DNA of 64,000 nt, taken from a virus. The stretch is taken from positions 21,452-85,451 of the IMG/VR virus record IMGVR_UViG_3300033978_000477, one strand, 5' to 3'. The notes under the pieces were generated by a model, which was not told the DNA's origin, made no database searches, and saw only the letters and a list, made by a program, of their open reading frames with translations. The position numbers and the translations under genes were made by a program. Positions 17,446 through 29,412 of this stretch are shown here, one piece after another (within the stretch, counting starts at the first letter, position 1; each line of letters opens with the position of its first letter).

Positions 17446-17771
17446 CGCAGCACCAGCTCTGCCCAGTTGTAGGTGCGCCCGGTGGCGAAGCGGTCGTAGC
17501 CACCGCAAGGTCCGCCGATGATGCCAGTGTACCGATGCATCTCCTGAGTACGGCGAACCGGAGTCATGCGAGCAATCCAGGACCAACGCTCGACGACGTT
17601 GCCGGGCTCGCGATGCGCCACGAAGTCGGTGCCGCGCCACACCTCGCTCGCGACCTTGGCGCCATCATGAAGTCGAAGCGCTCCGCGACTGCGACGCACC
17701 CAGCGATGAGCGACCAGTACGTCCCTTGCGCCGGTGCGCGCGAGTTCGTAGCGCCTGTAGTTGCCGGTCAT
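17442..17771 (-). CDS. Hypothetical protein
   Basis: ATGA-coupled at both ends. Confidence 0.5.
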   Translation of the reverse strand: MTGNYRRYELARTGARDVLVAHRWVRRSRGALRLHDGAKVASEVWRGTDFVAHREPGNVVERWSWIARMTPVRRTQEMHRYTGIIGGPCGGYDRFATGRTYNWAELVLR

Positions 17772-18097: not shown

Positions 18098-18178
18098 CTC
18101 CTATCCAGAAAGGTTGAGGGGGAAAGGAAGGGCGCTGCGTTGCAGCGCAGCGCCCTACCGGGTGACAGAACTCAGCGC
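18098..18178 (-). promoter_or_regulatory. Repeated intergenic hairpin/RBS element, copy downstream of DUF932 gene
   Basis: GCGCTGA-N7-CACCC..AGGGCGCTGCG-CTGCAA-CGCAGCGCCCT..CTGGATAGGAG. Confidence 0.6.
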
Positions 18179-19605
18179 GCTTCGACGTAGCGGAGCGGCT
18201 TGACGTTGTTGACCATCCAGGCCCCGACTGCGCGCTCTGCGTCGCGACGTTGCTCGGTGCCCTGGGTCTGGATGTACTTGGTCCAGCCCTGGGCGAAGTC
18301 GGCGCGGGACAAGTAGGACTCCTCGCGGCGCTCGTTGAAGAACGCGGTGGTCAGTCCCTCGATGTGGTGGTCGGTGCGGCCGGGGAGCACCGCCGAGAGT
18401 TCGCTGCTGCGGTCAGTCAGCAGCGCGCGCCAGAAGCCGGGGATGGCATCTTCGAGGGGGACACCCGAGGGCACCTCGATTGCCTGCGCGCGCTTGGTGC
18501 CCCAAGCTTTGCAGAGTACCTCGATGGCCGCAGTGGCCGCGTCGACCATGACTGCGACGTCGTCCAGAATCGCGCCGCGGTGGATGCGCGAGGCGCCGAC
18601 GCCGTCAGCGACGTAGGTGGAGGCGTTGAGGCAGCGCAGGAGTTCGATGCCGCCGCCGCCGTCAAGGCGTCCGGTGCCGTTGTCCCGCGAGCGGAAGGAC
18701 GCGAAGCCCTTGAACGCCTCGCCGACCGCTTGCTCTGCCACCGGGGTAGGGGTCCAGACCGAGGCGCGAAGCTCCCAGCCCGTCGTCGTGGGGTCGTACG
18801 CAGTGGCGCCGCGGGCATCGGCCGGCAGGGCGTCTACAAGCCGCGCCAGCGCTTCCGGGGCATCGGCGACACCGTAGGAAGGGGAGACCGCGGCGAAGAT
18901 GTCCTGGAGCCCCTGAGCGGTGCGGGTGCGCAACTTGAAGCGCAGGTCAGGGCGGCGCTTCAGTTCGCGCACCATCACCTCGGCAATCGTCTCCTTGTCG
19001 TGGCGGACAGCCGCCATGTCGCGCTCGTCCTCCGGCTTGGCAAGCTCCTCGCTGACGCGCTCACGTAGACCAAGCAGGAACCCAAGGCAGGGGGACTGAA
19101 GGCGTCCGCAGATGCCGCGGAGCGCGGTCTCGGTCATGCGGAGGCCATTCATTGAAACGATGCCGTTGACGTGAACGCCGCGCGCCATGTCCGCCGCGCT
19201 CGTCTCAACGTCGACCCGCTTCTCAGCGCGAACCATCTCGATGATTTGGTGGGCCGCATCGCGGACCAGGGTCATCGCGTCGTGCTCTGCCTTGCGGGCG
19301 TTCTGAGTCTCGTAACCCTCGACCGCCATCCGGGTGCCAGTGGCGTAGAACTGCTCCGCAGCGTTGACAGCGACGCCGCCAGCGATGAGCGCCGCCTGCT
19401 GTTGCTCGATGCGCTCCTTGGCGGCAACGTCGACCGTCTGCTCCGTCCAGGTGGAGTAGACCGGAGCGTCAACCACCGGAACGATCTGCGGGATACCGCC
19501 GCCTGCCTCGCGAACCATCGCGTCGGCGACGCTCATCGGGTCATCGGCGAGGGCAACGACCTTGGTGATGTCGTTCAGGGTGATGCTGTAGTGGGTCGCG
19601 TTCAT
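18172..19605 (-). CDS. DUF932-family protein
   Basis: AAVSPSY..D..; GFASFRSRDNGTGRLDGGGGIELLRCLNAS..RIHRG fits the DUF932 core. Confidence 0.65.
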   Translation of the reverse strand: MNATHYSITLNDITKVVALADDPMSVADAMVREAGGGIPQIVPVVDAPVYSTWTEQTVDVAAKERIEQQQAALIAGGVAVNAAEQFYATGTRMAVEGYETQNARKAEHDAMTLVRDAAHQIIEMVRAEKRVDVETSAADMARGVHVNGIVSMNGLRMTETALRGICGRLQSPCLGFLLGLRERVSEELAKPEDERDMAAVRHDKETIAEVMVRELKRRPDLRFKLRTRTAQGLQDIFAAVSPSYGVADAPEALARLVDALPADARGATAYDPTTTGWELRASVWTPTPVAEQAVGEAFKGFASFRSRDNGTGRLDGGGGIELLRCLNASTYVADGVGASRIHRGAILDDVAVMVDAATAAIEVLCKAWGTKRAQAIEVPSGVPLEDAIPGFWRALLTDRSSELSAVLPGRTDHHIEGLTTAFFNERREESYLSRADFAQGWTKYIQTQGTEQRRDAERAVGAWMVNNVKPLRYVEAR

Positions 19606-19613
19606 GGGGGAAT

Positions 19614-19679
19614 CTCCTATCCAGTTGTTTGGGTTGTGCGTCGCGTTGCAGCGCGCCGCGGGGTGTCGTTGTTCAGCGC
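19614..19679 (-). promoter_or_regulatory. Repeated intergenic hairpin/RBS element, copy upstream of DUF932 gene
   Basis: GCGCTGA-N7-CACCC-CGCGGCGCG-CTGCAA-CGCGACGC..CTGGATAGGAG. Confidence 0.6.
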
Positions 19680-19828
19680 CAGTACCCGGTGGCCTTCAGC
19701 GCGTCCTCGGCCGCGAAGTATTCGCGCCATGCCTTGTTCTGCGAAGACTTCGAGAGGTTCGCAGACTCGACGCGGCGGACGTTTGCTTGCGCTTTCTCGA
19801 ACCGGCTCTTGATGTCGTCGTTGCTCAT
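19673..19828 (-). CDS. 51-aa hypothetical protein, probably leaderless
   Basis: MSNDDIKSRF...; ATG 6 nt after a -10 box. Confidence 0.55.
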   Translation of the reverse strand: MSNDDIKSRFEKAQANVRRVESANLSKSSQNKAWREYFAAEDALKATGYWR

Positions 19829-19834
19829 GAGATT

Positions 19835-19863
19835 AACATACGCGCGCGGCAATCCGCGCGCAA
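19835..19863 (-). promoter_or_regulatory. Sigma70-type promoter
   Basis: TTGCGC-N17-TATGTT with upstream T-tract (UP-like). Confidence 0.6.
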
Positions 19864-19920
19864 GTGGATAACGCAAAAAAAAGACCAGTGACGGTCTTTT
19901 CTGCGGGAAACGCGATGCTT

Positions 19921-20280
19921 TTAGTTGAGCATGTCGACGGCGTCGACAACCTCGACGCCAGCCGCACGCGCCCTCGCGACCATGTCCGCAGTCCCGCGTC
20001 CACCAGGGAACGCGACTACGAGGTCGGGCTTCTCCCGCTCCAGCATCAGCGCGTTGCGGATGGGTCCTGCTGCCCGACCGTGCGTCTTCCAGTCGGCATG
20101 GTAGGCGACGCATTGGTGTCCGTTCTCCCGCGCCCAGCGGGCCGCCAGCGCGTCAGCGCCAGTGGCTCCGCCGTGGACGATGCGGAGGTCACCGTGGAAC
20201 GCGTGTAGCGTGTTCAGCGTGTCTCTGACGCGGTGCCAGTCTGAGTAGTCGCGTCCGCCGCAAACGAGGATGGTGGTCAC
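19921..20280 (-). CDS. SLOG family protein (YspA-related/DUF2493)
   Basis: ILVCGGRDY, IVHGGATGAD, AAGPIRN, VVAFPGGRGTADMV. Confidence 0.85.
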   Translation of the reverse strand: MTTILVCGGRDYSDWHRVRDTLNTLHAFHGDLRIVHGGATGADALAARWARENGHQCVAYHADWKTHGRAAGPIRNALMLEREKPDLVVAFPGGRGTADMVARARAAGVEVVDAVDMLN

Positions 20281-21026
20281 CGGTTCACGTCCCGTTCCCG
20301 CGCTGCAAGCGCGTCAGTCAACTCGTCCGAATAATACGCGCGCTCCCACGCGCGTCGCCCATGCCCGGTCCCTCGGTCCCCTCCCAGCGACCCAACGCGG
20401 ATGTAGTTCCGGTCGTACATGCCGCCTTGGGTGCATGCGTACGCGGGATGCAACGGCAGCCCATGGGCATGAATGAACGGGAACACGTGAAGCGCCACCT
20501 TCCAGTGCCCGATTGGGGCGCAGGTGTTCTCCGTGGTGAGTCCGTAGTGCGCCGTTCGAAGGCGCCTGACCGCAGACTCTTGGGCGCGCACACCCGAGAT
20601 GTGGCGCTTCCCGAACATGCGCTCGGCTTGCGCGAAACCCTCGGATGACGTGAGCCCCTTCTTCGCGGTACGAGCCTCGACCTCGTGATAGTTGGCGGTC
20701 GGATGCATCGCGAGAAATGCGTCCCGAACCAAGACGCAATCTGGGTTCTCACGATCATCGACGCGCACCCAGACGAGAGGAACATGGATCCCGTGGGTCA
20801 ACGCGATGTGCGCCGTCACCACGGAGTCCTTGCCCCAACTCACCCCGAGGTAACCGCGCCTGCCATCAGGGCCGGCATCAAGGAACGTTCGCATCTCGTG
20901 AGCTGCCTTGCGAGCAAGCACATCAAGAGTCGGCCGCATCCTCTTTGCCTCAAGCGCATCGGTGCGCTCATAGATGGCCCACTGCTCCAAATCGCGTGGC
21001 GTATGGCGCGGACTGGCTATCAGCAC
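20277..21026 (-). CDS. cysH: CysH-like PAPS-reductase-family protein of type IV-B CRISPR loci
   Basis: PP-loop SWGKDS, SGVRAQES..RR, PIGHW..LPLHPAY; directly downstream of csf3. Confidence 0.85.
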   Translation of the reverse strand: MLIASPRHTPRDLEQWAIYERTDALEAKRMRPTLDVLARKAAHEMRTFLDAGPDGRRGYLGVSWGKDSVVTAHIALTHGIHVPLVWVRVDDRENPDCVLVRDAFLAMHPTANYHEVEARTAKKGLTSSEGFAQAERMFGKRHISGVRAQESAVRRLRTAHYGLTTENTCAPIGHWKVALHVFPFIHAHGLPLHPAYACTQGGMYDRNYIRVGSLGGDRGTGHGRRAWERAYYSDELTDALAARERDVNR

Positions 21027-21655
21027 GCAGTGGCCTCCTCACGATGTTTCTGCCAGTACGGAGGCGCCAGAACGCGCCGTTCGATGCGATGCTCTCCCAG
21101 TCCCTCCCAGTCGAGCGGAAGCGGTCTGAGTGGCCGCCCAGCGCGAAGAACGGGGAAGCCCGGCCACGCTTCGATCGGCTCAACCACCCACCGATCCACA
21201 CGGCCGAGACCGACGCCGCGCTTCTTCCCGAGGTGAGTGACGAGCGAGAGGATGTCCGTCACCGCGTCGATGTCCCCGATGGCATAGAACGTCATCAGAT
21301 CGCCATGCAGGTGCAGAGTCTCGGCGGGGATGCGGAAGCCCTTGGACAGGCCGCCCTTTGGGTTGACGCTCATCTTGGTCTTCCCGAGCATCTGCGCCTC
21401 CAGCATCGGGAAGCGCTTGTTGATGAACCGCTTCTCGTGCAGCTCGACACTGAACTGCCCCGTCGACGCGAGGTAGATGCCGCGCTCTCGCGAGATGGGG
21501 ATCTGAATGTCAACGAGAGGACCGAACCCCGGAGGGGGGAGCGCGTCGCGCACGGCAATGGCTGCCATGAGCAACGCGTCCAGTGCAATGCTCGCATGAG
21601 GAAGCATCACGGAACCGCGCAGGTGTGCGCGAGCGACGAAGGGACCCATGGTCAC
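21020..21655 (-). CDS. csf3: Type IV Cas5-like subunit Csf3
   Basis: IALDALL, TFYAIGD, HLGKKRGVGLGRVDRW (G-rich loop), RPLP, PPYW. Confidence 0.8.
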   Translation of the reverse strand: MTMGPFVARAHLRGSVMLPHASIALDALLMAAIAVRDALPPPGFGPLVDIQIPISRERGIYLASTGQFSVELHEKRFINKRFPMLEAQMLGKTKMSVNPKGGLSKGFRIPAETLHLHGDLMTFYAIGDIDAVTDILSLVTHLGKKRGVGLGRVDRWVVEPIEAWPGFPVLRAGRPLRPLPLDWEGLGEHRIERRVLAPPYWQKHREEATAC

Positions 21656-22659
21656 GCGTCCACCTCGGACAGAAACTTGGCGACCTTCTCTTTCCGCTCG
21701 CTCACATGCGAGAAGAAGAGGGAGCCGATCTTCGGCGCCAACGCTCCAACGTCCAGGTTCTCCGGCGCCTCACGAGGGCGACGAACCGCGATCTGCTTTG
21801 CGATGATCGGACGGATGCGCCCGTGCCCGGTCGCGCGTTTCCCCCCGACGCGAGCATCGCGAAGGAAGGCGCCAACCATCGTGTTGAACGTGTCCCGCTC
21901 AAGCTCCGTGTGGACCGTCGCAGTGACCGACCAGTAGAACAGTGCGCCGGAGACAACGGTCTCATGGTTGCGAGGAAGCATCGTGCTCTTGGACGAGTCC
22001 GCAATGACGACGTCGCCGACTTCCTTCCCGTGTTCGGACGCAAGCAGTCGCCGCTCGATGCTCAGCCCTCCGTCCGTCAGAAGCTTGCGCTTCCCAGGGT
22101 CCAGGCTCGGGTCCATGCGAACGCGCATCACCTCTTCGACGTGACCGCGTGCAGATGAGAGTTTGACCCCGTGCTCCTTCAGCCATTCGTTGACCCACTC
22201 CGGCATCCGGTGGGCAGTCTCGTCGCAGATCAAGTCCGCCGCATCCACTTGGACCTTCCCAGGGATCGCGCGGTTCTGGGCGCAGCCTCCGAGGAGTCCT
22301 AGGGGAGGGCAGAGATCGATCATGACAGAGTAGTCCGACAACTTCACGGACCCTTCCTGCGAGCCAGATATCATCCCGCCAGCGAAGAGAAGTCGCAGAG
22401 CGGCCTCGCCAAGCGCGGGGTTTTCCAGCATCCCGGCCGCATCAAGAAGCGCGTAAGCGCCGGCCTCGCGCAGACCGTGGCGCATCGTGTCTCCGGTGAT
22501 GATCGGTACATGTGCAAAGGAGCCATCGGGCAGACGGCGCTTCTCGCGCATCACGAGAGACGTGTTGCCGATGCTCTCCGATGCATGGGCAATTGGCGTA
22601 AGGGCCTCAAGGATGAAATCGTAACGAACCACTTCGTGAACCTTCTTCGTCTCGCTCAT
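21652..22659 (-). CDS. csf2: Type IV Cas7-like backbone subunit Csf2
   Basis: LEALTPIAH, VPIITGDTMRHGLRE, LLFAGG, PPLGLLGG, GKVQV, VGGKRATGHGRI (RAMP G-loop). Confidence 0.85.
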   Translation of the reverse strand: MSETKKVHEVVRYDFILEALTPIAHASESIGNTSLVMREKRRLPDGSFAHVPIITGDTMRHGLREAGAYALLDAAGMLENPALGEAALRLLFAGGMISGSQEGSVKLSDYSVMIDLCPPLGLLGGCAQNRAIPGKVQVDAADLICDETAHRMPEWVNEWLKEHGVKLSSARGHVEEVMRVRMDPSLDPGKRKLLTDGGLSIERRLLASEHGKEVGDVVIADSSKSTMLPRNHETVVSGALFYWSVTATVHTELERDTFNTMVGAFLRDARVGGKRATGHGRIRPIIAKQIAVRRPREAPENLDVGALAPKIGSLFFSHVSERKEKVAKFLSEVDA

Positions 22660-23042
22660 TGTGCCGCTTCCTCTCGTGCTGCCTGGGCAGCTTCCTTGCG
22701 TTGTTCGGCGATGCCACGGGCCATCGCAATCAGGTAGCCAAACTCCCTTTCGATCAAGTCGAGCCATGCGCGGGAGCAGTTGTTCTCTCGGACGAAGTCC
22801 GCGAGATCACGAGAAGAGCGAGAGCTGTCCACTCGCAGCGCCCCCAACTGAAGCGTTCGAACCATCTTGGTCGTCCACTCCTCTACCGATTCGCTCTGCC
22901 GAGATGCCGCCAGCATCCGGCTCTGCAACTGATCCCAGTGCTTCAGGACGTTGCACCCAGGCGTCCCCAGGTACGCGCTCCGAAGCTCCAGCAGAAGCTC
23001 CACTGTCAGCGTCCGCAGACGCTCTTTCTTTTCCTCGTTCAC
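22656..23042 (-). CDS. cas11: Cas11-like small alpha-helical subunit
   Basis: 128-aa helical protein between csf1 and csf2 (the IV-B position); GTG start at 23042; ATGA-coupled to csf2. Confidence 0.65.
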   Translation of the reverse strand: MNEEKKERLRTLTVELLLELRSAYLGTPGCNVLKHWDQLQSRMLAASRQSESVEEWTTKMVRTLQLGALRVDSSRSSRDLADFVRENNCSRAWLDLIEREFGYLIAMARGIAEQRKEAAQAAREEAAQ

Positions 23043-23817
23043 GTTTCGGTCCCTTCTTCTTGGTCGGCCCATCAGCCTTCGATTTCGTCGTCTTCGCCGC
23101 GGCCTTCTTTGCCGCCTTCTCTTGTTTCTCCGCTTCCATCCTTTCGGCCACTGCGGCCTCGTCACGTTGCGCCAGCCAGATGGCCAACTCAAACCACTGC
23201 CCACCACGCCTAAAGCCGTGCTTGGTCTCGAACGCGTGAAGCTTCGCCCCGCACAACTGCCACGCGCGCGAGCCGAGAGCCCCAGACAGAATCTCCTCCT
23301 TCGTTGCGCCCATCGTCAGCAGATCGGCGATGTCGTCCAGCATTGACCAGCCTTCAGCATCGCGAGGCAACTCGACGATGGCCTCCTCGAACAGGACCGC
23401 ACCACCGGCCTGTCCAGGCGCGTTGATGGGGGTCCACGGGATCAGGTGCTTCTTGCCGCTGTCCGCGATGGCGGCGAACCATGGGGCCTCGTGGGTGCGG
23501 CGAATGAAGTCTCGGATGGCTGGCTTCTGCCCCTTGTTCACGCGGACGTGAGAGGAGCCTTCCACCAGGTGCGTCCACATGCGCTCAGTGTCGGGAGGTT
23601 TGCCGGCCATGACGTGGACACATGACTCGCAGACGTAGCCGCTCTCTGCGCAGCGGACGCGGTTCTGGCCTGTAAAGTTTGCGCCGGCCCACTTGTGACG
23701 CTCCACCCCTCGCGTCGCGTCACCGCCGCAAACCCAACAATGGAACGCTTCCATGTCTCGGCACATGGCGTTTGGCTTGAGCCCGAGAATCTTGTGGATG
23801 ATCTGGCTAGGGCTCAC
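22807..23817 (-). CDS. csf1: Type IV Cas8-like large subunit Csf1 with C-terminal tail ending QLSLFS
   Basis: CWVCG..NFT..VCESC zinc motif; PWFAAIADSGKKHLIPWTPIN. Confidence 0.75.
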   Translation of the reverse strand: MSPSQIIHKILGLKPNAMCRDMEAFHCWVCGGDATRGVERHKWAGANFTGQNRVRCAESGYVCESCVHVMAGKPPDTERMWTHLVEGSSHVRVNKGQKPAIRDFIRRTHEAPWFAAIADSGKKHLIPWTPINAPGQAGGAVLFEEAIVELPRDAEGWSMLDDIADLLTMGATKEEILSGALGSRAWQLCGAKLHAFETKHGFRRGGQWFELAIWLAQRDEAAVAERMEAEKQEKAAKKAAAKTTKSKADGPTKKKGPKRERGKERASADADSGASAGASERVPGDAWVQRPEALGSVAEPDAGGISAERIGRGVDDQDGSNASVGGAASGQLSLFS

Positions 23818-24752
23818 GGAACCTCCGAGACACGAATGCGCCCAAAGCCAAACGCGGTGCGCCCTCCAAAGCCGGTACGTGCTGCGACTTCAAGAAGCCA
23901 CCGGGCTGGAGCGTTTGCCTCGACCACGCAATGCCCCTCCCAGCCTGAAACGGTGCCGTACTTGCCGCCGACCTCTACCCTGGCGACCCTCGTATCGACC
24001 TCAGACGCTTCGACGCGGATCAGGTCGTCCGTCTTCAGGTGTTCGAGAGAGAAACGCTGAAGCCAAGCTCCGGCGAGTGTGTTGAGCAGCGCGACTGATG
24101 TTGGCTTCTCGTGGCTCTTGGTGCGCCCATCCGTTGTCATGACGACAGGGGTGATGGTGTCGATACGGACGCGCTTCCTGCCCCTAGCAATGCCGCGCGG
24201 CGCCTTGATTCGGAAGGCCTGTCCAAACTTGAACTTCGATGGATGCCCGTACAGTGGACAGTCGACAGTCTTGCCGGCCAATGAGGCGCCAGCATCGTGC
24301 CACCAGTGGACCGCCCAACCGCTCTGATACGGGAACAGCGTCCACAACGGAAAGCGAGGCATGTGCCCCATGTCGAGGATGTTGGTCAGTGCGCCATGAA
24401 GGCCCCGGGTGTTTCGCAACTCAATGGGCCACTTTGGCGACGGGTAGACACTGAAGGCCATTGATGCGCCCGGCAGGTACGTGTCGAACGGAGGGGCGCC
24501 AGCAAGCCATGGTTTGCGGGTGGAGCAGGCTCGGTTTGCCTCTGCCCACTTGCGGTTCCGCTCCCTGTCCTTCTCGACGTAGGAAGGCGATGCTCTCCGT
24601 GCACGGTCCCGCTCCCGCTCCCGTTCCTTCCTGCACTCTTCAGAGCAGAACTGCGTCATCCAAGGGTTGGCCGTTTGGTACACCGACCGGCAACGTTTGC
24701 ACTCTGCTTCGTACCGCTCACGCTCTGCTGCGTTCATCAACTCACACCTCAC
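23814..24752 (-). CDS. cas6: Cas6-like RAMP endoribonuclease with N-terminal zinc-finger/basic helix
   Basis: LHGAL, IDTITPVV, GWEG..LLEVAARTGFGGRTAFGFGRI (GxGxxxxxGxG); N-terminal CKRC..FCSEEC. Confidence 0.8.
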   Translation of the reverse strand: MRCELMNAAERERYEAECKRCRSVYQTANPWMTQFCSEECRKERERERDRARRASPSYVEKDRERNRKWAEANRACSTRKPWLAGAPPFDTYLPGASMAFSVYPSPKWPIELRNTRGLHGALTNILDMGHMPRFPLWTLFPYQSGWAVHWWHDAGASLAGKTVDCPLYGHPSKFKFGQAFRIKAPRGIARGRKRVRIDTITPVVMTTDGRTKSHEKPTSVALLNTLAGAWLQRFSLEHLKTDDLIRVEASEVDTRVARVEVGGKYGTVSGWEGHCVVEANAPARWLLEVAARTGFGGRTAFGFGRIRVSEVP

Positions 24753-25108
24753 CCATTCCGATGCGACCGCGTCTCGTTGTAGGCGCTCTTGATCAGCACC
24801 GCGCGACCGATGTCGACGCCGTTCTCCTCTGCGGTGTCGAGCGCACGGATGATGATGTCAGCCAGCTCCTCTTCCATGCAGGTGAGGGGCTCAGCCGTCT
24901 TCTTGTCGCACGGCTTGTCCAGCATCCCGCGCCGGTAGGCCTCCCAGAGTTCGGAGACCTCGCCGTGCAGGTTTGCGACCGAGACAGCCATGGGCACCGG
25001 TTCGTCGTGGAAGCCTTTCGACCTGGCGATGCCGTAGACGTGGTTGGCAAGTGAGCGCAGCGAGTCCGCGATGCGCCGGCCTTCGCCGCTGTCTATGTAT
25101 AGAGTCAT
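24749..25108 (-). CDS. MazG-like nucleotide pyrophosphohydrolase
   Basis: ANLHGEVSELWEAYR..EEELADIIIRALD..K.AYN..R. Confidence 0.8.
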   Translation of the reverse strand: MTLYIDSGEGRRIADSLRSLANHVYGIARSKGFHDEPVPMAVSVANLHGEVSELWEAYRRGMLDKPCDKKTAEPLTCMEEELADIIIRALDTAEENGVDIGRAVLIKSAYNETRSHRNG

Positions 25109-25488
25109 CACATCCCCTCCGTCTTCTTCACCGGCCCCGTCTCCACCATCGCCATCAGGTCCGCAGGTAACGTTCGGTACTCCACCGCCGTCCCGCGACT
25201 GTTCGCCGTATCGACCCCGAGCGCCATCCCGCTGCTGATGCCGAAGTCCGTGTAGACCGCCACCAGATCGCACTTGTTGCCCCAGGCAAAGCCCGCGCTG
25301 ATGCCGAGCGTTCGGTGTTCCTTGTTCGTGTCGTCCAGCAGTTGTGTGTAGAGCAAGTGCGAAGCCATCGGGGCTTCATTGCGTCGCTCAATGCTGTCGA
25401 GGCAGCATAGCCGCGCGTAGTTGATGTTCTGCTCGAACGTCCTGCCGTTGGCTGGACTCAGCGGACTCTCAATGACCACTAGCTTCAT
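25108..25488 (-). CDS. Nucleoside-deoxyribosyltransferase-fold-like phage protein
   Basis: VVIESP..NINYAR..APMASHLLYTQLLDD..DLVAVYTDFGISSGM. Confidence 0.55.
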   Translation of the reverse strand: MKLVVIESPLSPANGRTFEQNINYARLCCLDSIERRNEAPMASHLLYTQLLDDTNKEHRTLGISAGFAWGNKCDLVAVYTDFGISSGMALGVDTANSRGTAVEYRTLPADLMAMVETGPVKKTEGM

Positions 25489-25640
25489 GACTTCTTGAAC
25501 TCCTTCTCCTGATGCCGCTTCCTTGCCCCAGCAATGCGGCACTTCTTCGACTTTGCATGACGGTGCAGCGGCCGATGTGTCCCGACCGCATGCACCACCA
25601 ACGCGCCACAATTGGCGCAGCGAGCGACGTAGCCGCTCAC
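25485..25640 (-). CDS. 51-aa zinc-finger protein (MSGYVARCANCGALVV..HAKSKKCRI..)
   Basis: Hand-translated; fills the gap after dnaN and is ATGA-coupled downstream. Confidence 0.5.
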   Translation of the reverse strand: MSGYVARCANCGALVVHAVGTHRPLHRHAKSKKCRIAGARKRHQEKEFKKS

Positions 25641-25644
25641 CAGT

Positions 25645-26772
25645 TCAGATCCTCATCGGCATGACGACGCACAAGAAGTCATCGCCAGACTCCGCCTCGG
25701 GCGCCACCATCAGCGGGTCGAGTTCCCCGTTCAGTTTGAGGACCACCTCCTCGCAGGACAGAACGTTGCAGGCGTCGACGATGTATTTGGCGTTGAATCC
25801 AACGCTGATGTTCGGTCCGGTGTAGCCGATGATCAGTTCGTCCGCCCCATCACCATGCTCCGGGCTCTCCGCCTCGATGCGGAGCGTCCCCTTGGAGAAG
25901 CGGAACTTGACGCCTCCAGTGCGCTCGTTCGATGCAACGGAGATCGCCTTGCAAGCCTCAATGAGCGCGAGCCGGTCGACTTCCGCGATGCTGTCGTTCC
26001 CCTTCGGGATGACCTGCGAGTATGGCGGGAACTTCGCGTCCACCAACTTGATGCTGTAGACCATCCCGGCGAAGTCGAAGAACGCGTTGTTGTCTGCGAT
26101 GGTGACGCGGATGACCGATCCAGCATCCGCTGCGCTGGCCTCGTCACACATGCGACGGATGTCAGTTGCTCCCTTCAGCGGAAGAAGGAACTCAAAAGCG
26201 GTTCCTTCGGAGACGGGGAGGTTCGACAACGTCAGACGATGCCCGTCGGTGGAGACCGTTCGCAGGTTGGTGCCATCAGCCTCGAACTTGATCGCGTTCA
26301 GGTGGGCCCGCGACTCGTCCACGCCAACGCTGGAGATGACTCGACCGATGGCGCGCGACAACGTCACGGCATGGAACTCGCGCGACGCCGTTGTGTTTGC
26401 GCCGGCAGCCTTTGCGACGGGCGGGAAGTCTTCGGCATGGTGGCATGGGAGCCGAAACTTTCGCGCCCCCTTCTCCGCCTTCATCTGGACGGCCTTGTCA
26501 TCACCGATGATGGTGAGGTTGCCCGAAGGCATCGCCTTGACGCGAGCTTCCAGATCCTTCGCGCCGATGGCGATGGCCCCGGACTTCGAGACCTTGGCGT
26601 CCACGGACCCGGTGACGGATCGGTAGAGGTCGGTCGCGGTGAAGTGGACCTGTCCATCTTCGCAACGTAGGAGGATGTTCGCGAGCATCGGCATGGTGCT
26701 CTTGTGGTCTGCGACAGGCGTTGCCCGTCGAAGGATCTTGTCGAGGTCGTTGCGTTGAATCGTCACTTCCAT
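25645..26772 (-). CDS. dnaN: DNA polymerase III beta sliding clamp
   Basis: TMPMLANILL, TATDL, EDFP, VSTDGHRL, FPPYSQVIP, GFNAKYI, VVMPMRI. Confidence 0.95.
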   Translation of the reverse strand: MEVTIQRNDLDKILRRATPVADHKSTMPMLANILLRCEDGQVHFTATDLYRSVTGSVDAKVSKSGAIAIGAKDLEARVKAMPSGNLTIIGDDKAVQMKAEKGARKFRLPCHHAEDFPPVAKAAGANTTASREFHAVTLSRAIGRVISSVGVDESRAHLNAIKFEADGTNLRTVSTDGHRLTLSNLPVSEGTAFEFLLPLKGATDIRRMCDEASAADAGSVIRVTIADNNAFFDFAGMVYSIKLVDAKFPPYSQVIPKGNDSIAEVDRLALIEACKAISVASNERTGGVKFRFSKGTLRIEAESPEHGDGADELIIGYTGPNISVGFNAKYIVDACNVLSCEEVVLKLNGELDPLMVAPEAESGDDFLCVVMPMRI

Positions 26773-26987
26773 TGTCTGTTCTCTCCGTTCGTTCGGGACC
26801 CGCCCGACTCGGTTGATGCAATTCGTTTCTCGATGGCCCGCTGAACAGCCACCACCTTCCACTGAGGGCAGCCGTTGGTGTCCGCGTACTGCCTTGCCCT
26901 GGCAACCAGATCGTCGAAGCTCGCGCTCCCGAGCCAGGCCAGGAACTTGATGTCCGCATCGATCCGGTGATGCTCCCCGCGCCTCAT
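26763..26987 (-). CDS. Hypothetical protein
   Basis: Coupled ORF. Confidence 0.45.
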   Translation of the reverse strand: MRRGEHHRIDADIKFLAWLGSASFDDLVARARQYADTNGCPQWKVVAVQRAIEKRIASTESGGSRTNGENRQWK

Positions 26988-27193
26988 TGCCCGGACACCT
27001 CCCGCCAACCGGCATCGGTCAGCCGGTAGTAGGTCTTTGGCCCATCGGCGAACTGCACCGTCGCAGTCGCGCACAACCCCCTCAGGACGAGCGCGTCAAC
27101 CGCATCGGCCTGGGATGGGGTCTCGGGCATGAAGAGCATGTGGCGGGCCATCTGGCGCAAGCAAGCGGCCTCTGCGTCGATAGCCATCAGCAC
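26984..27193 (-). CDS. Hypothetical protein (winged-helix-like)
   Basis: ALVLRGL..KTYYRLTDAG; RBS GAGGAGG overlapping integrase stop. Confidence 0.5.
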   Translation of the reverse strand: MLMAIDAEAACLRQMARHMLFMPETPSQADAVDALVLRGLCATATVQFADGPKTYYRLTDAGWREVSGQ

Positions 27194-28563
27194 GCCTCCT
27201 CTGCCGCGACATTGGCGCGATGCTCCGTCACCAATGCGTCGACCGCAGCGGCCAGGTCCAAGCCCTTGCGGGTCGCAAACGGGTCCCGCTCAGCAACAGC
27301 CGACAGGTAGGACCCGGATAGGGCCCAGAGCTTGTCCATCGGCGCGAGATCATTCATGACTGCCCCCGTTTGCAAAACCGTCATACGTGGGTTCGAATCC
27401 CATCCACGCCTCTCAATCAATTCAATGGCTTGGCCCGCATCCTCGCTCACTGGCTCGGGCCCTATTCGGACCCTATGTTGCGGGATGGCATTGCTCGGAA
27501 GGTCGACACTGGGCCCCATCGAGAGACCGATGGATCGCGCGTAGCGCTCCGTGACCTTGACCGAAGAGTGACCCAGGAGGTCCTTCACGGCCTCGTAGCT
27601 CCAAGGCTTGCCGTCCCAAGCTCCGGTCAACAGGAGCGTTGCGCATGTGTGGCGGAGATCATGCCAGCGGACGCGGCGAGTGATCCCGGCCTTGGCCTTC
27701 CAGGCTGCCCAGTCAGCGGCGGCGACGATGCGTCCCTTCGGGCGATGCAGTCCGGTGACGCTCGGCAGGACGATGCCTTTGCGCTCGGCCTCTGGCACCG
27801 CCAGGACGGCCTGTAGCGCGATGCCGAACAGGCGAACCTTCCGCACTCGCCCGCTCTTCGTCGAGACGCCTGGGGTGCCATAGCGGAGCACTACGTGGGG
27901 GACCTTGGCGTTGACGTGAACGTCGGACCAAAGAAGCGAACGCTCCTCGCCTTGGCGCATCCCGGTTCCGATGGCCAAGCAGACGGCCAGGTCGTTCCCG
28001 CTCGCAGCGATCAGCGCAAGCGTCTCCGCCATATCGAGGGCGGTGCTCTTCTCGTCCGTGCTGCCATGGTCTTTGACCTTGATGCCAAGCGCGACGTTGG
28101 TTGCGAGCTTGCCGGCCTCGACTCCGTAGGAGAGAACAGCGCGCAAGGTGTTGAGCGCGTTGCGCCGGGTCATCGTCGACAGCCCGCGCGCGGAGATGTC
28201 CGCCAGCCATTCCCGGATCTGTCCAGTCGTCAGATCGCGAGCCGGCATCCGCGATGCCTCCCACGGAAGGACGTAGGCGTTCCAGCAAGACTTGAAGCTC
28301 TTGATCGCCTTGTACCCATCGCGCTCGCGAAGGTCGATGCAGGACTCGCCAAGGCGCTTCAGGCTGATACCGCCTCGCGTGCACTCGCTCTCTGCTAGCA
28401 CCGCTAGGATGCCATCGAGAGCCATCTCCGCCTCTTCGTAGGTCGCAAACGGGGAGCCTTCGATCTCTTCCCTTCGTCCAATGGTGAACGGGAAGCGCGC
28501 GCGGTACCGTCCGTCTGCGATCTTGGTGATGGTGCCAGAGCCCTTAGGCCTTCGCTTCGTCAT
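27187..28563 (-). CDS. int: Tyrosine recombinase/integrase with attP inside its 3' region
   Basis: GTGMRQGE, HDLRHT, LLGHSSVKVTERY; C-terminal RRGWDSNPRMTVLQT is antisense tRNA. Confidence 0.92.
   Translation of the reverse strand: MTKRRPKGSGTITKIADGRYRARFPFTIGRREEIEGSPFATYEEAEMALDGILAVLAESECTRGGISLKRLGESCIDLRERDGYKAIKSFKSCWNAYVLPWEASRMPARDLTTGQIREWLADISARGLSTMTRRNALNTLRAVLSYGVEAGKLATNVALGIKVKDHGSTDEKSTALDMAETLALIAASGNDLAVCLAIGTGMRQGEERSLLWSDVHVNAKVPHVVLRYGTPGVSTKSGRVRKVRLFGIALQAVLAVPEAERKGIVLPSVTGLHRPKGRIVAAADWAAWKAKAGITRRVRWHDLRHTCATLLLTGAWDGKPWSYEAVKDLLGHSSVKVTERYARSIGLSMGPSVDLPSNAIPQHRVRIGPEPVSEDAGQAIELIERRGWDSNPRMTVLQTGAVMNDLAPMDKLWALSGSYLSAVAERDPFATRKGLDLAAAVDALVTEHRANVAAEEAC
27368..27411 (+). 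mobile_element. attP core: 3' portion of tRNA-Cys(GCA)
   Basis: GT-TTGCAAA-ACCGT..GTGGG-TTCGAAT-CCCAT-CCACGCC-T (U73 discriminator); the 5' half does not pair; IHF-like ATTCAATGGCTTG just downstream. Confidence 0.8.
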
Positions 28564-28787
28564 ACGCCGCCTCGCTTCTTTATCATCCGCCTTGCCCGTG
28601 ACGTGTACAGGTCATCGGTGACTGGAGACAAGGGCTGCGGGAACGGCCTCGCACGAAGTGCCCGAGGGCGACTCTTTGGAGCAAGCGGAGCCGGGTCATT
28701 GGCGGGCTCGGTTGCCTCCAGTTCTTCGGCGATGTCGGTGAGTACATCAGCCAGTGCGCGGTAGAGGTTGGCTAGCTTGGCGCTCAT
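28560..28787 (-). CDS. Small protein immediately upstream of int (possible recombination directionality factor)
   Basis: Position and ATGA coupling; basic C-terminus. Confidence 0.4.
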   Translation of the reverse strand: MSAKLANLYRALADVLTDIAEELEATEPANDPAPLAPKSRPRALRARPFPQPLSPVTDDLYTSRARRMIKKRGGV

Positions 28788-29017
28788 TGCGAAACCTTGG
28801 TGAGGGTCTTCGGGATGCGCCGCGCCGTCAGCTTTACCCCGATGCCGCGCAGTGCGTCCAGGAACCGCGATGCGACTTCGACGGAAACGCGCTGGCTACC
28901 ATGGCAGAGGTTGCAGTGACGGGCATTGTGCTTGGCAGCCTTGCGCCTCGCGACTTCGGTGCCGTGCATCGGGTTGCAGGATGGGCATCGGGTAGGGACC
29001 TGATCATCGTCGCTCAT
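28784..29017 (-). CDS. Zinc-finger protein
   Basis: CPSC..CNLCHGS; RBS GAGGAG. Confidence 0.55.
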   Translation of the reverse strand: MSDDDQVPTRCPSCNPMHGTEVARRKAAKHNARHCNLCHGSQRVSVEVASRFLDALRGIGVKLTARRIPKTLTKVSQ

Positions 29018-29040
29018 CTCGTGTACTCCTCATCAAAAGC

Positions 29041-29180
29041 GCCCGTCTCTCCGGGCTGTCACGCTGCAATGCTGCGTTGGCACTGGTCTCGCGACCATGT
29101 GGACGCTGGCGGAATCGAACCACCAACACGCGCGCATGCCACATGGGCGCCCCGTTGATGCCGGTCTCTCCCGGCTGTCA
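29041..29180 (-). ncRNA. Structured RNA element: two covarying 21-nt hairpin repeats flanking a T-loop/tRNA-like module
   Basis: TGACAGCCGGGAGAGACCGGC and TGACAGCCCGGAGAGACGGGC; internal GGTGG-TTCGATT-CCGCC and TGGTC-GCGA-GACCA. Confidence 0.6.
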
Positions 29181-29190
29181 GTTCAACGAT

Positions 29191-29412
29191 TCACCCTTCC
29201 CAGTGAGCGGACTGTGCTGCGCGCTCCACCGCCACACTCTCTGCTTGGCGCAGCGCTATCGACAACACGTCGGCGACCCTGTCGGCATCCCGCTGCGTCA
29301 TGTCTCGCGATGCAAGTCGCCACTCCTTTCCGGTCCAGACTTCCACTAGGCGTCGATGCTTGAAGCTGTTGATGCCGTTCACTACGCGCACCATTGGGTG
29401 ACGATCGCTCAT
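29191..29412 (-). CDS. Hypothetical protein
   Basis: Coupled ORF. Confidence 0.5.
   Translation of the reverse strand: MSDRHPMVRVVNGINSFKHRRLVEVWTGKEWRLASRDMTQRDADRVADVLSIALRQAESVAVERAAQSAHWEG

What the first reader, a model, noticed from the sequence alone, without database searches (positions are those of the whole stretch)
19921..26772. Phage-encoded, array-less type IV-B-like Cas effector with an extra Cas6, in one operon with a phage beta-clamp
Seen: a tightly coupled minus-strand run dnaN - Zn finger - NDT-like - MazG - ZnF-cas6 - csf1 - cas11 - csf2 - csf3 - cysH-like - SLOG, with no cas1/cas2, no DinG and no CRISPR array in the window. Established: type IV-B loci (csf1, cas11, csf2, csf3, cysH) sit on mobile elements, typically lack arrays and Cas6, and have no agreed function. 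Inference: this is a variant that processes its own RNA (or captures host crRNA) and is wired into phage DNA replication or counter-defence rather than immunity.
Basis: partly seen in the sequence, partly recalled or inferred. Interest (0 to 1): 0.9.

Follow-up and report, generated by a model that had tools for sequence, protein, structure and literature searches.

The report
Phage CRISPR-like complex with clamp tail
A lake-water phage carries a CRISPR-like (type IV-B) protein complex with no CRISPR array; it has its own RNA-cutting Cas6, and its largest subunit ends in the peptide that docks proteins onto the DNA sliding clamp, which gives two testable clues to a CRISPR subtype whose job is unknown.

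Summary
Window 19921-26772 (minus strand) is one translationally coupled run: dnaN, small Cys/His ORF, DUF7768/NDT-like, MazG-like, Zn-ribbon-Cas6, csf1, cas11, csf2, csf3, cysH-like, SLOG. It ends in a terminator. The complete 85-kb phage record has no CRISPR array, cas1, cas2, DinG or Rfam RNA.

The module belongs to a distinct, mostly viral IV-B clade in which the Cas6 is a regular member: 36 of 41 Cas6-bearing loci also show Csf or CysH-like genes, and the Cas6 family has at least 230 clusters at 50% identity.

The MazG, NDT and SLOG neighbours were found in no other locus. dnaN recurs only in the closest relatives. Gene order alone therefore does not support a link to replication.

I did find that the Csf1 ORF continues over cas11 in another frame and ends GQLSLFS, the beta-clamp-binding consensus. 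Eight of 26 Csf1 tails carry the strict motif, against 0.007 expected. This independently supports a link to replicating DNA.

Contigs show both free and tRNA-Cys-integrated forms. Integration cuts the operon off from upstream transcription. The RNA partner remains unknown.

This scan has already noted Cas6-bearing IV-B modules and Csf1 clamp tails on other phage DNA. I found neither feature in the papers searched. Verdict: a new variant of a known kind.

The parts
19875..19900 (-). Intrinsic terminator-like hairpin plus U-run that ends the operon
   Evidence: Read directly. Fold -15.2 kcal/mol, z -2.57, 2 of 200 shuffles as good. The consensus scan did not list it.
19921..20280 (-). SLOG (YspA/YAcAr) nucleotide-binding domain protein, last gene of the operon
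   Evidence: PF10686 E 2.1e-24; phrog_289 E 1e-26. Not found beside the module in 0 of 26 related loci with at least 1 kb downstream.
20277..21026 (-). CysH-like PP-loop / PAPS-reductase-family protein (type IV-B accessory)
   Evidence: PF01507 E 2.9e-5, above cut-off; phrog_2302 E 5.6e-18. The translation shows a PP-loop-like SWGKDS. Homologues lie next to csf3 or cas6 in most related loci.
21020..21655 (-). csf3 (Cas5-like)
   Evidence: PADLOC Csf3_0_IV E 4.8e-35; TIGR03116 E 5.5e-12, below cut-off.
21652..22659 (-). csf2 (Cas7-like backbone); the ORF is open to 22767, and the likely start is the ATG at 22659, which overlaps the cas11 stop
   Evidence: PADLOC Csf2_0_IV E 2.2e-42. The profile's best solved relative is Csf2 of the IV-B complex 7JHY, E 9.2e-14.
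22656..23069 (-). cas11 (small subunit); start uncertain, ATG at 23069 proposed
   Evidence: PADLOC Cas11_0_IV E 1.1e-5. GC3 coding signal switches to this frame at about 23040. tblastn hits in relatives start at the equivalent place.
22807..23817 (-). csf1 (Cas8-like large subunit): conserved domain to about 23136, then a low-complexity tail overprinted on cas11 that ends GQLSLFS (clamp-binding-motif-like, codons at about 22813-22827)
   Evidence: PADLOC Csf1_0_IV E 6.7e-24. Tail and motif. QL(S/D)LF consensus: passage of PMC9690074.
23814..24752 (-). Zn-ribbon-Cas6: residues 1-80 are a C4 motif plus a basic helix; residues about 83-312 are a two-domain Cas6 body with a G-rich loop
   Evidence: Pfam, NCBIfam and PADLOC Cas6 hits on residues 185-310. 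The ESM Atlas model aligns residues 83-312 to whole canonical Cas6 clusters, TM 0.56-0.68. H119 and H130 are invariant in 35 sequences.
24749..25108 (-). MazG-like nucleotide pyrophosphohydrolase
   Evidence: phrog_3301 E 1.9e-22; Pfam MazG E 0.0057, below cut-off.
25108..25488 (-). DUF7768 / nucleoside 2-deoxyribosyltransferase-like protein
   Evidence: PF24963 E 2.6e-27; phrog_355 E 5.6e-22.
25485..25640 (-).
   Evidence: ORF with 4-nt overlap or 4-nt spacing to its neighbours; no significant family.
25645..26772 (-). Phage dnaN (beta sliding clamp), three domains
   Evidence: TIGR00663 E 1.3e-66, above cut-off; PF00712, PF02767 and PF02768; phrog_947 E 5.7e-63.
26763..27193 (-). Two small overlapping ORFs (69 aa and 74 aa) that couple int to dnaN
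   Evidence: Overlapping stop/start codons read; no significant family.
27368..27400 (+). attP core (part of a tRNA-Cys 3' half) inside the 3' end of the int ORF; integration separates the operon from int and everything upstream
   Evidence: tRNA-like letters read. Contigs of three runs break or branch exactly at 27368-27397/27400, and one continues 1,251 nt into other DNA. tRNA matches in genomes.
27187..28563 (-). Tyrosine integrase, same strand, stop overlapping the next ORF's start
   Evidence: phrog_1 E 2.6e-39, match on residues 16-344 of 458.

Best explanation
This is a self-contained, array-less type IV-B-like Csf cassette (cas6, csf1, cas11, csf2, csf3, cysH-like) of a distinct, mostly viral clade. 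The clade differs from canonical IV-B in two conserved ways. It has a dedicated Zn-ribbon-Cas6. Its Csf1 has a disordered tail, overprinted on cas11, that ends in the beta-clamp-binding consensus. In this temperate phage, which is probably a phage of Myxococcota, the cassette sits in a long leftward transcription unit behind int and a phage dnaN. Proposed mechanism, step by step. (1) Cas6 binds or cuts a defined RNA (inferred). (2) Csf3, several Csf2, Cas11 and Csf1 assemble on that RNA as in the solved IV-B complex (inferred by homology). (3) The QLSLF tail of Csf1 docks the particle onto sliding clamps, phage or host, on replicating DNA (inferred from the motif). (4) The CysH-like PP-loop enzyme acts there on the nucleic acid that is held or met (inferred). 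In other members this enzyme is replaced or joined by a radical SAM enzyme, a phosphatase or a SpoU-type methylase. (5) attP lies between the operon and its upstream transcription, so the cassette should be made from the free or excised genome, during lytic growth, and not in the lysogen (inferred). The purpose is therefore counter-defence, marking of replicating DNA, or competition at replicating DNA, rather than adaptive immunity. Shown: gene identities; absence of an array and of an adaptation module; recurrence of Cas6 with the module; conservation of the tail motif; both integrated and free forms.
For: Identities. No array, cas1, cas2, DinG or Rfam RNA in the complete genome.

Cas6 belongs to the module. 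All 5 viral loci found with the Cas6 profile show Cas6 next to Csf2, Csf3 and CysH-like hits, and Csf1 and Cas11 hits in 4 of 5. Of the 7 MAG loci of at least 6.8 kb found with the Csf2 profile, 6 have a Cas6 hit, one of them weak. In all, 36 of 41 non-redundant Cas6-bearing loci have Csf or CysH hits. Cas6 and Csf2 distances correlate (Mantel r 0.50; 42 of 2000 permutations as high; 18 loci).

Family size: 230 representative clusters at E<=1e-30. A C4 zinc motif is present in 133 of 155 members with a long N-terminus, and the hHG motif in 207 of 219.

Clamp tail. The window's Csf1 ends GQLSLFS. The strict motif QL[SDGA]LF lies in the last 35 residues of 8 of 26 complete Csf1 ORFs, against 0.007 expected. 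Those 8 are 8 of the only 12 strict hits in 1.58 million six-frame residues. Looser variants (QLSLL, QLGLW, QCSLF, QQSLF, Q[GS]RLPGF) occur in most of the others. In 14 of the 22 tails with a motif, the stop follows within 3 residues. Within the motif, variation is concentrated at the third codon positions of the csf1 frame (1.3 bits against 0.4-0.6), and both flanks are unconserved.

A dnaN gene is co-encoded in the window, in L051/L004 (directly upstream of cas6), in L027 and in L005.

Integration: contigs end or branch at 27368-27400 in 3 runs, while one 36.7-kb contig spans the site. No sigma-70-like promoter was found on the operon strand in 19000-29500.

Papers (passages read): IV-B has no known function; a role for CysH-like in modifying bound nucleic acid has been proposed (PMC8175902); the QL(S/D)LF consensus and Tn7 TnsE using the clamp (PMC9690074).
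Against: No RNA substrate was found: no array, no solitary repeat, no dispersed repeat, no Rfam hit.

The only solved IV-B complex binds heterogeneous RNA and shows no density for Csf1 or Csf3 (PMC7937560 passages).

Cas6 catalysis is untested. The Cas6 family scores sit at or below curated cut-offs, and the match of its profile to a solved Cas6 is not significant (E 0.29).

Cas6 is dispensable in some lineages. L027, nested among the closest relatives, has neither a Cas6 nor a CysH hit, and the L006 Cas6 is split by a frameshift.

The tail lies where GC3 favours the cas11 frame, so its translation is inferred, not shown. The entropy test used sequences picked by the motif itself, which is an ascertainment bias. 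Four of 26 tails fit not even the loosest pattern used, though two of these four end QQAGLF or QQASLF (read by eye). The canonical IV-B Csf1 of Skermania phage SPI1 has no such tail.

Gene order with dnaN is not conserved: only 2 of 20 loci with at least 3 kb of upstream sequence, plus L051; 1 of 3 complete related phage records.

The promoter scan covers only one promoter type.
Confidence: 0.45

Rival explanations
1. Host-crRNA capture. The phage Cas6 binds repeats of the host's CRISPR transcripts. The Csf proteins then assemble on them, either soaking them up (an anti-CRISPR sponge) or reusing them as guides.
For: There is a Cas6 but no array anywhere in the complete genome. Sponge and scavenging ideas are discussed for IV-B in PMC8175902 and PMC7038947 (passages). 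Array-poor CASTs can take host crRNAs through Cas6 (PMC11656645 passage). The predicted expression from the free genome fits counter-defence.
Against: The JS623 IV-B complex did not enrich co-expressed crRNAs (PMC7937560 passages). Pinilla-Redondo et al. call the sponge idea unlikely, and Zhou et al. cite a negative co-occurrence of IV-B with other CRISPR systems. Of the 5 MAGs holding related loci, only G006 has Cas1, and G006 is the one whose locus lacks Cas6; the MAGs are incomplete and binning of phage contigs is unreliable. This reading does not explain the clamp-type tail or the CysH-like enzyme.
Confidence: 0.2
2. Generic IV-B cassette with no link to replication. The neighbours dnaN, NDT, MazG and SLOG are merely co-transcribed early genes. 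The csf1 tail is an untranslated or unselected open frame over cas11, and its QLSLF is a by-product.
For: MazG and NDT hits were found in 0 of 49 related loci, SLOG hits in 0 of the 26 loci with at least 1 kb of downstream sequence, and dnaN in few. GC3 in the overlap follows the cas11 frame. Alternative frames often stay open in GC-rich DNA.
Against: Eight strict motifs against 0.007 expected, placed at or near the ORF end. Synonymous-type variation in the csf1 frame, while the cas11-frame residues there vary (SSRSS, SSACG, SSRYS, NNCHS). Both flanks are unconserved.
Confidence: 0.18
3. A system that serves the lysogen or competes with other mobile elements. The cassette sits at the prophage end next to attR, like a moron. 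It silences incoming phages or plasmids, using guides from another array in the cell.
For: It lies next to the attachment site here, and next to int in L046 and L052. Type IV-A systems act in plasmid competition (PMC7038947 and PMC11656645 passages).
Against: No promoter was found between the attP core and dnaN, and all genes from int onward are translationally coupled. It is co-transcribed with replication and nucleotide genes typical of lytic early functions. The phage has no array.
Confidence: 0.1
4. Clamp poisoning. The Csf1 tail, perhaps many copies on a filament, occupies the host clamp cleft and shuts down host replication or repair, while the phage uses its own dnaN.
For: A clamp-binding-type tail plus a separate phage clamp in the same operon. 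A toxin that blocks replication through the usual clamp motif exists (SocB; PMC9690074 passage).
Against: Most relatives with the tail have no phage dnaN nearby. A six-gene RNP is an elaborate way to deliver a pentapeptide.
Confidence: 0.07

Closest known systems
Subtype IV-B CRISPR-Cas of Mycobacterium sp. JS623 (Csf complex, PDB 7JHY; PMC7937560)
   Same: Csf1, Cas11, Csf2, Csf3 and a CysH-like neighbour. No array, no adaptation genes, no helicase, carried on a mobile element. It is the best solved relative of the Csf2 profile (E 9.2e-14).
   Different: Very distant: no tblastn hit of the window's Csf2 in 72,556 plasmid records. The window's clade adds a Cas6, which Zhou et al. say IV-B has lost. 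It also has a Csf1 tail with a clamp-binding-type motif, and it is viral rather than plasmid-borne.
IV-B genes of Skermania phage SPI1 (KR011061, Orf40-44, all annotated 'hypothetical')
   Same: The only record of 50,697 deposited phage records with a Csf2 match (24.5% identity). It has Csf1-Cas11-Csf2-Csf3 in the same order.
   Different: No Cas6 in the neighbourhood. Its Csf1 has no QLxLF tail. It sits on a very long branch from the window's clade.
The 12 IV-B loci with a Cas6 mentioned as 'rare exceptions' by Pinilla-Redondo et al. (PMC7038947)
   Same: IV-B with a Cas6 and without an array (passage).
   Different: They are listed only in Supplementary Data S1, which I could not open, so I cannot tell whether they are this Zn-ribbon-Cas6 family. 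Here the combination is the rule for a clade with at least 230 Cas6 clusters.
Type IV-A (Csf5/Cas6, CRISPR array, DinG)
   Same: Csf1, Csf2, Csf3 plus a Cas6-type RNase on a mobile element.
   Different: The window has no array, no DinG and no Csf5-type match, only generic Cas6 models. It has Cas11 and a CysH-like gene, which IV-A lacks (PMC7038947 passage).
Fuxivirus (Bathyarchaeia virus) IV-B with mini-array (PMC10848311)
   Same: A virus-encoded IV-B with a CysH-like gene (passages).
   Different: An archaeal virus with a two-repeat mini-array. The word Cas6 does not occur in that paper's main text.
Beta-clamp clients with terminal QL(S/D)LF, and Tn7 TnsE (PMC9690074)
   Same: The window's Csf1 ends with the exact pentapeptide consensus on a flexible tail. 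TnsE is a precedent for a mobile element using the clamp to find replicating DNA (passages).
   Different: No Cas protein is described there as a clamp client. Binding is not shown here.

Membership tests
Subtype IV-B CRISPR-Cas | Csf2 (type IV Cas7) | tested here: met
   PADLOC Csf2_0_IV E 2.2e-42; 7JHY Csf2 E 9.2e-14. TIGR03115 gives only 33 bits against a cut-off of 130.
Subtype IV-B CRISPR-Cas | Csf1 large subunit and Csf3 (Cas5) | tested here: met
   Csf1_0_IV E 6.7e-24; Csf3_0_IV E 4.8e-35.
Subtype IV-B CRISPR-Cas | Cas11 small subunit | tested here: met
   Cas11_0_IV E 1.1e-5 and a second Cas11 model E 1.7e-5. Weak, but in the right place and conserved in relatives.
Subtype IV-B CRISPR-Cas | Adjacent cysH-like gene | tested here: met
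   PF01507 above cut-off; phrog_2302; directly after csf3.
Subtype IV-B CRISPR-Cas | No CRISPR array and no adaptation module | tested here: met
   Whole 85-kb record.
Subtype IV-B CRISPR-Cas | No helicase (DinG or RecD) in the locus | tested here: met
   No gene of the coupled run (small ORFs after int to SLOG, 19921-27193) matches a helicase. No DinG-type Helicase_C_2 anywhere in the record. RecD was not searched by its own model; the phage's other helicases lie more than 13 kb away.
Subtype IV-B CRISPR-Cas | No Cas6 / crRNA-processing enzyme (as the subtype is described in PMC8175902 and PMC7937560) | tested here: not met
   A Cas6 is encoded directly upstream of csf1. I therefore file it as a variant of IV-B, not a typical member.
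Subtype IV-A CRISPR-Cas | DinG helicase, Csf5/Cas6 and a CRISPR array; no Cas11 | tested here: not met
   No DinG domain; no array; Cas11 present.
Cas6 endoribonuclease | Two RRM-like domains with a C-terminal G-rich loop | tested here: met
   C-terminal domain and loop: PF01881, PF10040, TIGR01877 and PADLOC Cas6 models. Whole body: the ESM Atlas model aligns residues 83-312 to canonical Cas6 clusters, TM 0.56-0.68 by query; that is a lead, not an alignment with statistics.
Cas6 endoribonuclease | Catalytic residues and RNA cleavage | tested here: inconclusive
   H119 and H130 are invariant in 35 sequences, and hHG is present in 207 of 219. Equivalence to the catalytic His of studied Cas6 enzymes rests on my recall and on a non-significant alignment to 6FJW. 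The structure tools were off.
Beta-clamp client (clamp-binding motif) | QL(S/D)LF-type pentapeptide on a flexible terminus | tested here: met
   Csf1 ends GQLSLFS after a low-complexity tail of about 100 residues. Enriched in relatives.
Beta-clamp client (clamp-binding motif) | Physical binding to the clamp cleft | not testable with these tools
This needs a pull-down or a peptide-binding assay.

The most novel reading that the evidence does not exclude
Type IV-B complexes of this clade ride on the replication fork. An RNA-scaffolded Csf filament, whose RNA is defined by its own Cas6, docks on the sliding clamp through the Csf1 tail. It delivers an interchangeable enzyme (CysH-like PP-loop, radical SAM, SpoU methylase/phosphatase) to nascent DNA or primer RNA. 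Replicating phage DNA is thereby marked or protected against host defences, or a rival's replication is blocked. This would give the enigmatic subtype IV-B its first mechanism.
Probability: 0.2. Interest if true: 0.9.

Novelty: new variant of a known kind. Interest (0 to 1): 0.68.

Why it matters
Subtype IV-B is the CRISPR-Cas subtype with no known function. The reviews I read say that the source of its RNA and the role of CysH are the open questions (PMC8175902, PMC11656645). This clade offers two handles that canonical IV-B lacks.

The first is a dedicated Cas6. A Cas6 implies a defined RNA, which could be identified by sequencing what co-purifies.

The second is a clamp-binding-type tail on Csf1. 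It predicts a specific partner (DnaN) and a place of action (replicating DNA). Both predictions can be tested with ordinary pull-downs and point mutants.

The window is a particularly good test case. It is a complete temperate phage genome that also encodes its own clamp in the same operon. Both its integrated and free forms are present in many lake metagenomes.

Tried and rejected
Search for a substrate RNA:
- CRISPR-like repeats in the window and in the whole record gave nothing (TRF, repeat finder, k-mer and mismatch-tolerant scans).
- Dispersed repeats gave nothing.
- Rfam at gathering and at E<=1 gave nothing.
- Conserved non-coding DNA around 40+ related modules gave only unmasked gene ends and divergent Csf genes.
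- Hairpin-repeat pairs in related records gave only DNA palindromes and coding repeats.

Candidate hairpins. Three are observed against 0.07 expected. They are absent from the other Cas6-IV-B phages, and their 3' flanks differ. I rate them more likely boxB-like or terminator elements (a comparison from recall) and keep them only as candidates.

The array in L027. It has 14 repeats of 36 nt and at first looked like the missing array. It lies directly after a 567-aa ORF with a Cas12f1-like TNB domain. Its repeat occurs nowhere else in that MAG, nor in the window's genome or other loci above shuffled noise ([wrong slice, redone] and 61). Its spacers match nothing held. I rejected it as evidence for IV-B guides.

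Cellular relatives. There was no hit of the Cas6 patterns in 185,579 species genomes. The Csf2 profile hit 0 of 201 genomes in the order of the best tRNA match. There was no plasmid hit.

Long Cas6-family proteins (600-780 aa). Pfam and PADLOC name only the Cas6 part. I did not pursue them.

Expression. No RNA holder is listed among the 24 runs, so nothing can be said about transcripts.

Tree. The careful search did not finish, so the result is a quick IQ-TREE with SH-aLRT support only. L075 and SPI1 sit on very long branches.

ORF 53348-53866. It also ends in a clamp-motif-like peptide, but has no solved relative.

Supplementary Data S1 of PMC7038947, which lists the 12 IV-B loci with Cas6, may bear on novelty.

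Full report
WHAT IS THERE. The window is bases 21452-85451 of an 85,451-bp IMG/VR virus record that CheckV rates 100% complete. Its two ends repeat 131 bp at 99.2% identity, so the genome is complete or circularly permuted. It is a temperate tailed phage. It has a tyrosine integrase, RecT, an exonuclease, a DnaB-type helicase, further helicases and a large terminase.

On the minus strand, 19921-26772 holds eleven genes. They overlap by 1-11 nt or are 4 nt apart: dnaN, a 51-aa Cys/His ORF, a DUF7768/NDT-like gene, a MazG-like gene, cas6 with an N-terminal zinc motif, csf1, cas11, csf2, csf3, a cysH-like gene and a SLOG gene. The family assignments are significant. The Csf and Cas6 proteins nevertheless score far below NCBIfam's curated cut-offs, so this is a divergent set. 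The 51-aa 'Zn finger' has no family support.

The run ends in a hairpin followed by eight U at 19900-19875 (-15.2 kcal/mol, z -2.57). Upstream it continues without a gap through two small ORFs into the integrase gene.

NO ARRAY ANYWHERE. I laid the whole record. I found no CRISPR-like repeats by exact or mismatch-tolerant scans and no dispersed repeats. There is no Cas1, Cas2, DinG-type helicase domain or TnpB/Cas12 domain and no Rfam family, CRISPR repeat families included. The unseen 21 kb holds one tRNA-Trp.

THE CAS6 IS A CLADE FEATURE, NOT AN EXTRA. A protein search with the Cas6 gave 104 clusters at 90% identity, nearly all metagenomic. A profile search of 1.84 billion representatives gave 737 hits at E<=1e-3, 298 at E<=1e-10 and 230 at E<=1e-30.

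The family keeps the G-rich loop, two invariant histidines (H119, H130) and an N-terminal CxxC...CxxxC motif. The C4 motif is present in 133 of 155 members with a long enough N-terminus, and an hHG motif in 207 of 219. The ESM Atlas's own model aligns residues 83-312 to whole canonical Cas6 clusters (TM 0.56-0.68), and the nearest clusters are mostly viral.

Context:
- All 5 IMG/VR loci found with the profile carry Cas6 next to Csf2, Csf3 and CysH-like hits, and Csf1 and Cas11 hits in 4 of 5.
- Thirteen MAG loci were found with a Csf2 profile. Of the 7 that are at least 6.8 kb long, 6 have a Cas6 hit, one of them weak.
- Thirty-eight metagenome loci were found with the Cas6 profile.
- After dropping 6 duplicates, 49 rows remain; L004 and L051 are overlapping pieces of one phage. 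Of these, 41 have a Cas6 hit, and 36 of the 41 also have Csf or CysH hits. The other five are two contigs under 2 kb and three members of a divergent subgroup.

Cas6 sits upstream of csf1, or between csf3 and cysH, or after cysH. Cas6 and Csf2 distances correlate (Mantel r 0.50, 42 of 2000 permutations as high, 18 loci).

In a quick Csf2 tree the window pairs with L046 (support 99), then L027 (82), then L004 (99). The Cas6-less L027 is thus nested among Cas6 bearers. The only cultured-phage relative, Skermania phage SPI1, sits on a very long branch. SPI1 has Csf1-Cas11-Csf2-Csf3 annotated as hypothetical proteins and no Cas6.

The best solved relative of the Csf2 profile is Csf2 of the JS623 IV-B complex (7JHY, E 9.2e-14). 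No plasmid record has a tblastn hit.

THE NEIGHBOURS. MazG-like and NDT-like hits were found in 0 of 49 related rows. SLOG hits were found in 0 of the 26 rows with at least 1 kb of downstream sequence. dnaN hits occur in 3 rows: L005, L027 and L051. That is 2 of the 20 rows with at least 3 kb upstream, plus L051, where dnaN lies directly before cas6. Only 1 of 3 complete related phage records has a dnaN at all.

Within the window's nearest four lineages, three have dnaN at most 5.4 kb upstream. This fits shared phage backbone rather than function.

The accessory enzymes next to the module vary:
- a DSP-type phosphatase in L002;
- a phosphatase plus SpoU-methylase protein in L006, with tblastn relatives in L062 and L074;
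- a radical SAM enzyme, Pfam-confirmed in L027 in place of CysH, with tblastn relatives of it in L038/L056 and L065;
- ASCH proteins, Pfam-confirmed in the window, read from the sequence in L003, with tblastn relatives of the L003 ORF in L062 and L067.

Gene order alone therefore does not show that the module is wired into replication.

THE CSF1 TAIL. The csf1 ORF does not stop where its conserved domain ends (about residue 227-240). It runs a further 100 or so codons of low-complexity sequence across the start of cas11 in another frame, and it ends GQLSLFS. QL(S/D)LF at a C-terminus is the bacterial beta-clamp-binding consensus (PMC9690074, passage).

I extracted the Csf1 ORF ends of all related loci. 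Of 26 complete ORFs, 8 have the strict QL[SDGA]LF in the last 35 residues: the window, L027, L030, L031, L032, L035, L037 and L060. In all 1.58 million six-frame residues that I held, the strict pattern occurs 12 times, and 8 of these are the Csf1 tails. The expectation for 26 tails is 0.007.

Most other tails end in near variants (QLSLL, QLGLW, QLGFVF, QCSLF, QQSLF). Five end in Q[GS]RLPGF-type peptides, which resemble the Qxx[L/I]xxF PIP pattern. In 14 of the 22 tails with a motif by a loose pattern, the stop codon follows within 3 residues. Four tails have none by that pattern.

The motif is an island. Flanking positions have 1.2-1.9 bits of nucleotide entropy. Within the motif, the first and second codon positions of the csf1 frame have 0.4-0.6 bits and the third positions 1.3 bits. 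The cas11-frame residues there differ between loci. The 17 sequences used for this test were chosen by the motif, so it is biased towards this result.

Against the tail: GC3 in the overlap follows the cas11 frame, and the Csf1 of SPI1 has no such tail.

I could not fold the tail with the clamp. I found no paper that links Csf1 or type IV systems to the sliding clamp. The searches were made; the two type IV papers that hold the word 'clamp' use it otherwise.

INTEGRATION AND TIMING. A fragment of a tRNA 3' half lies inside the 3' end of the int ORF, after the end of the integrase-family match at residue 344 of 458.

Twenty-four lake-water metagenome runs hold the stretch. In the four that I laid:
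- one 36.7-kb contig spans 19800-29300 without a difference; it may be the source assembly;
- in X2, a 29-kb contig ends at 27397, and a second contig covers 27368-29300 and goes on for 1,251 nt of other DNA;
- X10 breaks at the same 30 bases;
- loose ends sit at 27368 and 27400 in X2, X10 and X17.

By my reading of the printed loose letters, they complete the 5' half of a tRNA-Cys. Both free and integrated forms therefore exist, and the crossover core is 27368-27397/27400.

The fragment matches tRNA genes in the phylum of a Myxococcales-labelled MAG: 20 of 151 genomes at E<=1e-3, 11 at E<=1e-8, best 98% over 46 nt. It matches 0 of 151 genomes in each of two proteobacterial classes at E<=1e-8. 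The closest module relatives also carry Myxococcales and Sorangium labels. A Myxococcota host is likely, not proven.

Integration puts the operon at the far prophage end, cut off from int and everything upstream. No sigma-70-like promoter was found on its strand. I infer expression from the free genome only. A note of this scan made the same inference (e1-6121273).

WHAT IT MOST LIKELY DOES. Shown: the parts list, the absence of array and adaptation genes, the regular presence of Cas6, the conserved clamp-type tail, and the two genome states. Inferred: the mechanism given under Best explanation, in which a Cas6-defined RNA scaffold carries a Csf filament, the Csf1 tail docks it on sliding clamps, and a variable nucleic-acid-modifying enzyme acts there, during lytic growth.

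This extends the published proposal that the IV-B particle recruits CysH-like to modify bound nucleic acid (PMC8175902, passages). The clamp gives a place, and Cas6 gives a handle on the RNA. It remains weak on the RNA, for which I found no candidate that survives comparison. It is also weak on the chemistry.

The main rivals are capture of host crRNA and a tail that is an accident of overlapping frames. Both are testable.

WHAT IS KNOWN. IV-B systems on plasmids and some prophages, without arrays and Cas6, are textbook (PMC7038947, PMC8175902, PMC11656645, PMC12669027; passages). IV-B in viruses is in print (PMC10848311). Cas6 in IV-B is mentioned only as 12 rare exceptions in a supplement that I could not open. 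Zhou et al. describe IV-B as having lost Cas6-based processing.

This scan has earlier, unpublished notes of Cas6-bearing IV-B modules in other phages and of Csf1 tails ending in clamp motifs in at least 9 other genomes. I found the tail here before looking those up, and my counts are my own.

I file the locus as a new variant of a known kind. It fails one descriptive feature of IV-B (no Cas6) and adds a feature (the clamp-type tail) not found in the papers searched.

SCORES. Interest 0.68. A specialist would not be surprised by an array-less IV-B on a phage. A large viral IV-B clade with its own Cas6 and a clamp-binding-type Csf1 tail, here co-transcribed with a phage clamp, makes the long-open question of IV-B function directly testable.

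Noticed in passing
L027:1421-2410 and L044:14301-16004 (contig C168 of a Myxococcales-labelled MAG): The relative L027 (Csf2 71% identical to the window's; only L046, at 82%, is closer) has a 14-repeat CRISPR array (36-nt repeats, 35-39-nt spacers) abutting its dnaN, directly after a 567-aa ORF with a Cas12f1-like TNB domain. This looks like a compact type V system beside a IV-B module that has lost Cas6 and CysH and gained a radical SAM gene. The repeat is unique to that contig in the MAG.
   Followed up: partly
window 29041-29056, 29160-29175 and 34761-34776 (minus strand): Three hairpins with a 5-bp stem and a G[A/T]GAGA loop (0.07 expected). The first two differ by a compensating G-C/C-G swap and flank a tRNA-like mini-helix. 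They are absent from the other Cas6-IV-B phages. They may be boxB-like or terminator elements, or a Cas6 substrate. Already noted by this scan (e1-6121276, e1-6121275).
   Followed up: partly
window 27368-27400; read-laying runs X1, X2, X10, X17: The phage is present in 24 lake-water metagenome runs, in both free and integrated form. attP lies inside the int ORF, so integration should change the Int C-terminus after about residue 388.
   Followed up: partly
window 53348-53866 (+): A second ORF of the phage (172 aa) ends in a clamp-motif-like peptide (QQTMF followed by five residues). It has no solved relative and its family was not determined.
   Followed up: partly
L002:12597-13064; L006:10564-11322; L027:12322-13797: Accessory enzymes that replace or join CysH-like beside related modules: a DSP-type phosphatase (L002), a phosphatase plus SpoU-type RNA methylase protein (L006; tblastn relatives in L062 and L074), and a radical SAM enzyme (L027; tblastn relatives in L038/L056 and L065). 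ASCH-domain genes lie nearby: Pfam-confirmed in the window (17050-17640), read from the sequence in L003, with tblastn relatives of the L003 ORF in L062 and L067.
   Followed up: partly
proteins P0184, P0212, P0231, P0211, P0144, P0208, P0153, P0162, P0196, P0217: Members of the Cas6 family embedded in proteins of 600-780 aa. Their other parts match no Pfam or PADLOC model. They may be fusions or merged gene calls.
   Followed up: partly
L006:8851-9809: The Cas6 of this complete related phage (G005) is split into two overlapping ORFs. This is a frameshift or a sequencing error.
   Followed up: no
window 19829-19870 (minus strand): Directly after the operon's terminator lies a promoter-like TTGCGC, 17 nt, TATGTT with an embedded GC-rich palindrome. 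An ATG follows a few bases after the -10 element, so the mRNA may be leaderless. It would encode a 50-aa ORF and the 477-aa protein of unknown family at 18172-19605.
   Followed up: no
L013 (G004) minus strand near 14996: Another protein in the related phage G004 ends exactly in QLSLF; that phage also encodes a dnaN. The protein was not identified.
   Followed up: no
L084 (Skermania phage SPI1, Orf40-44): A cultured actinophage carries a complete canonical Csf1-Cas11-Csf2-Csf3 set annotated only as hypothetical proteins.
   Followed up: yes
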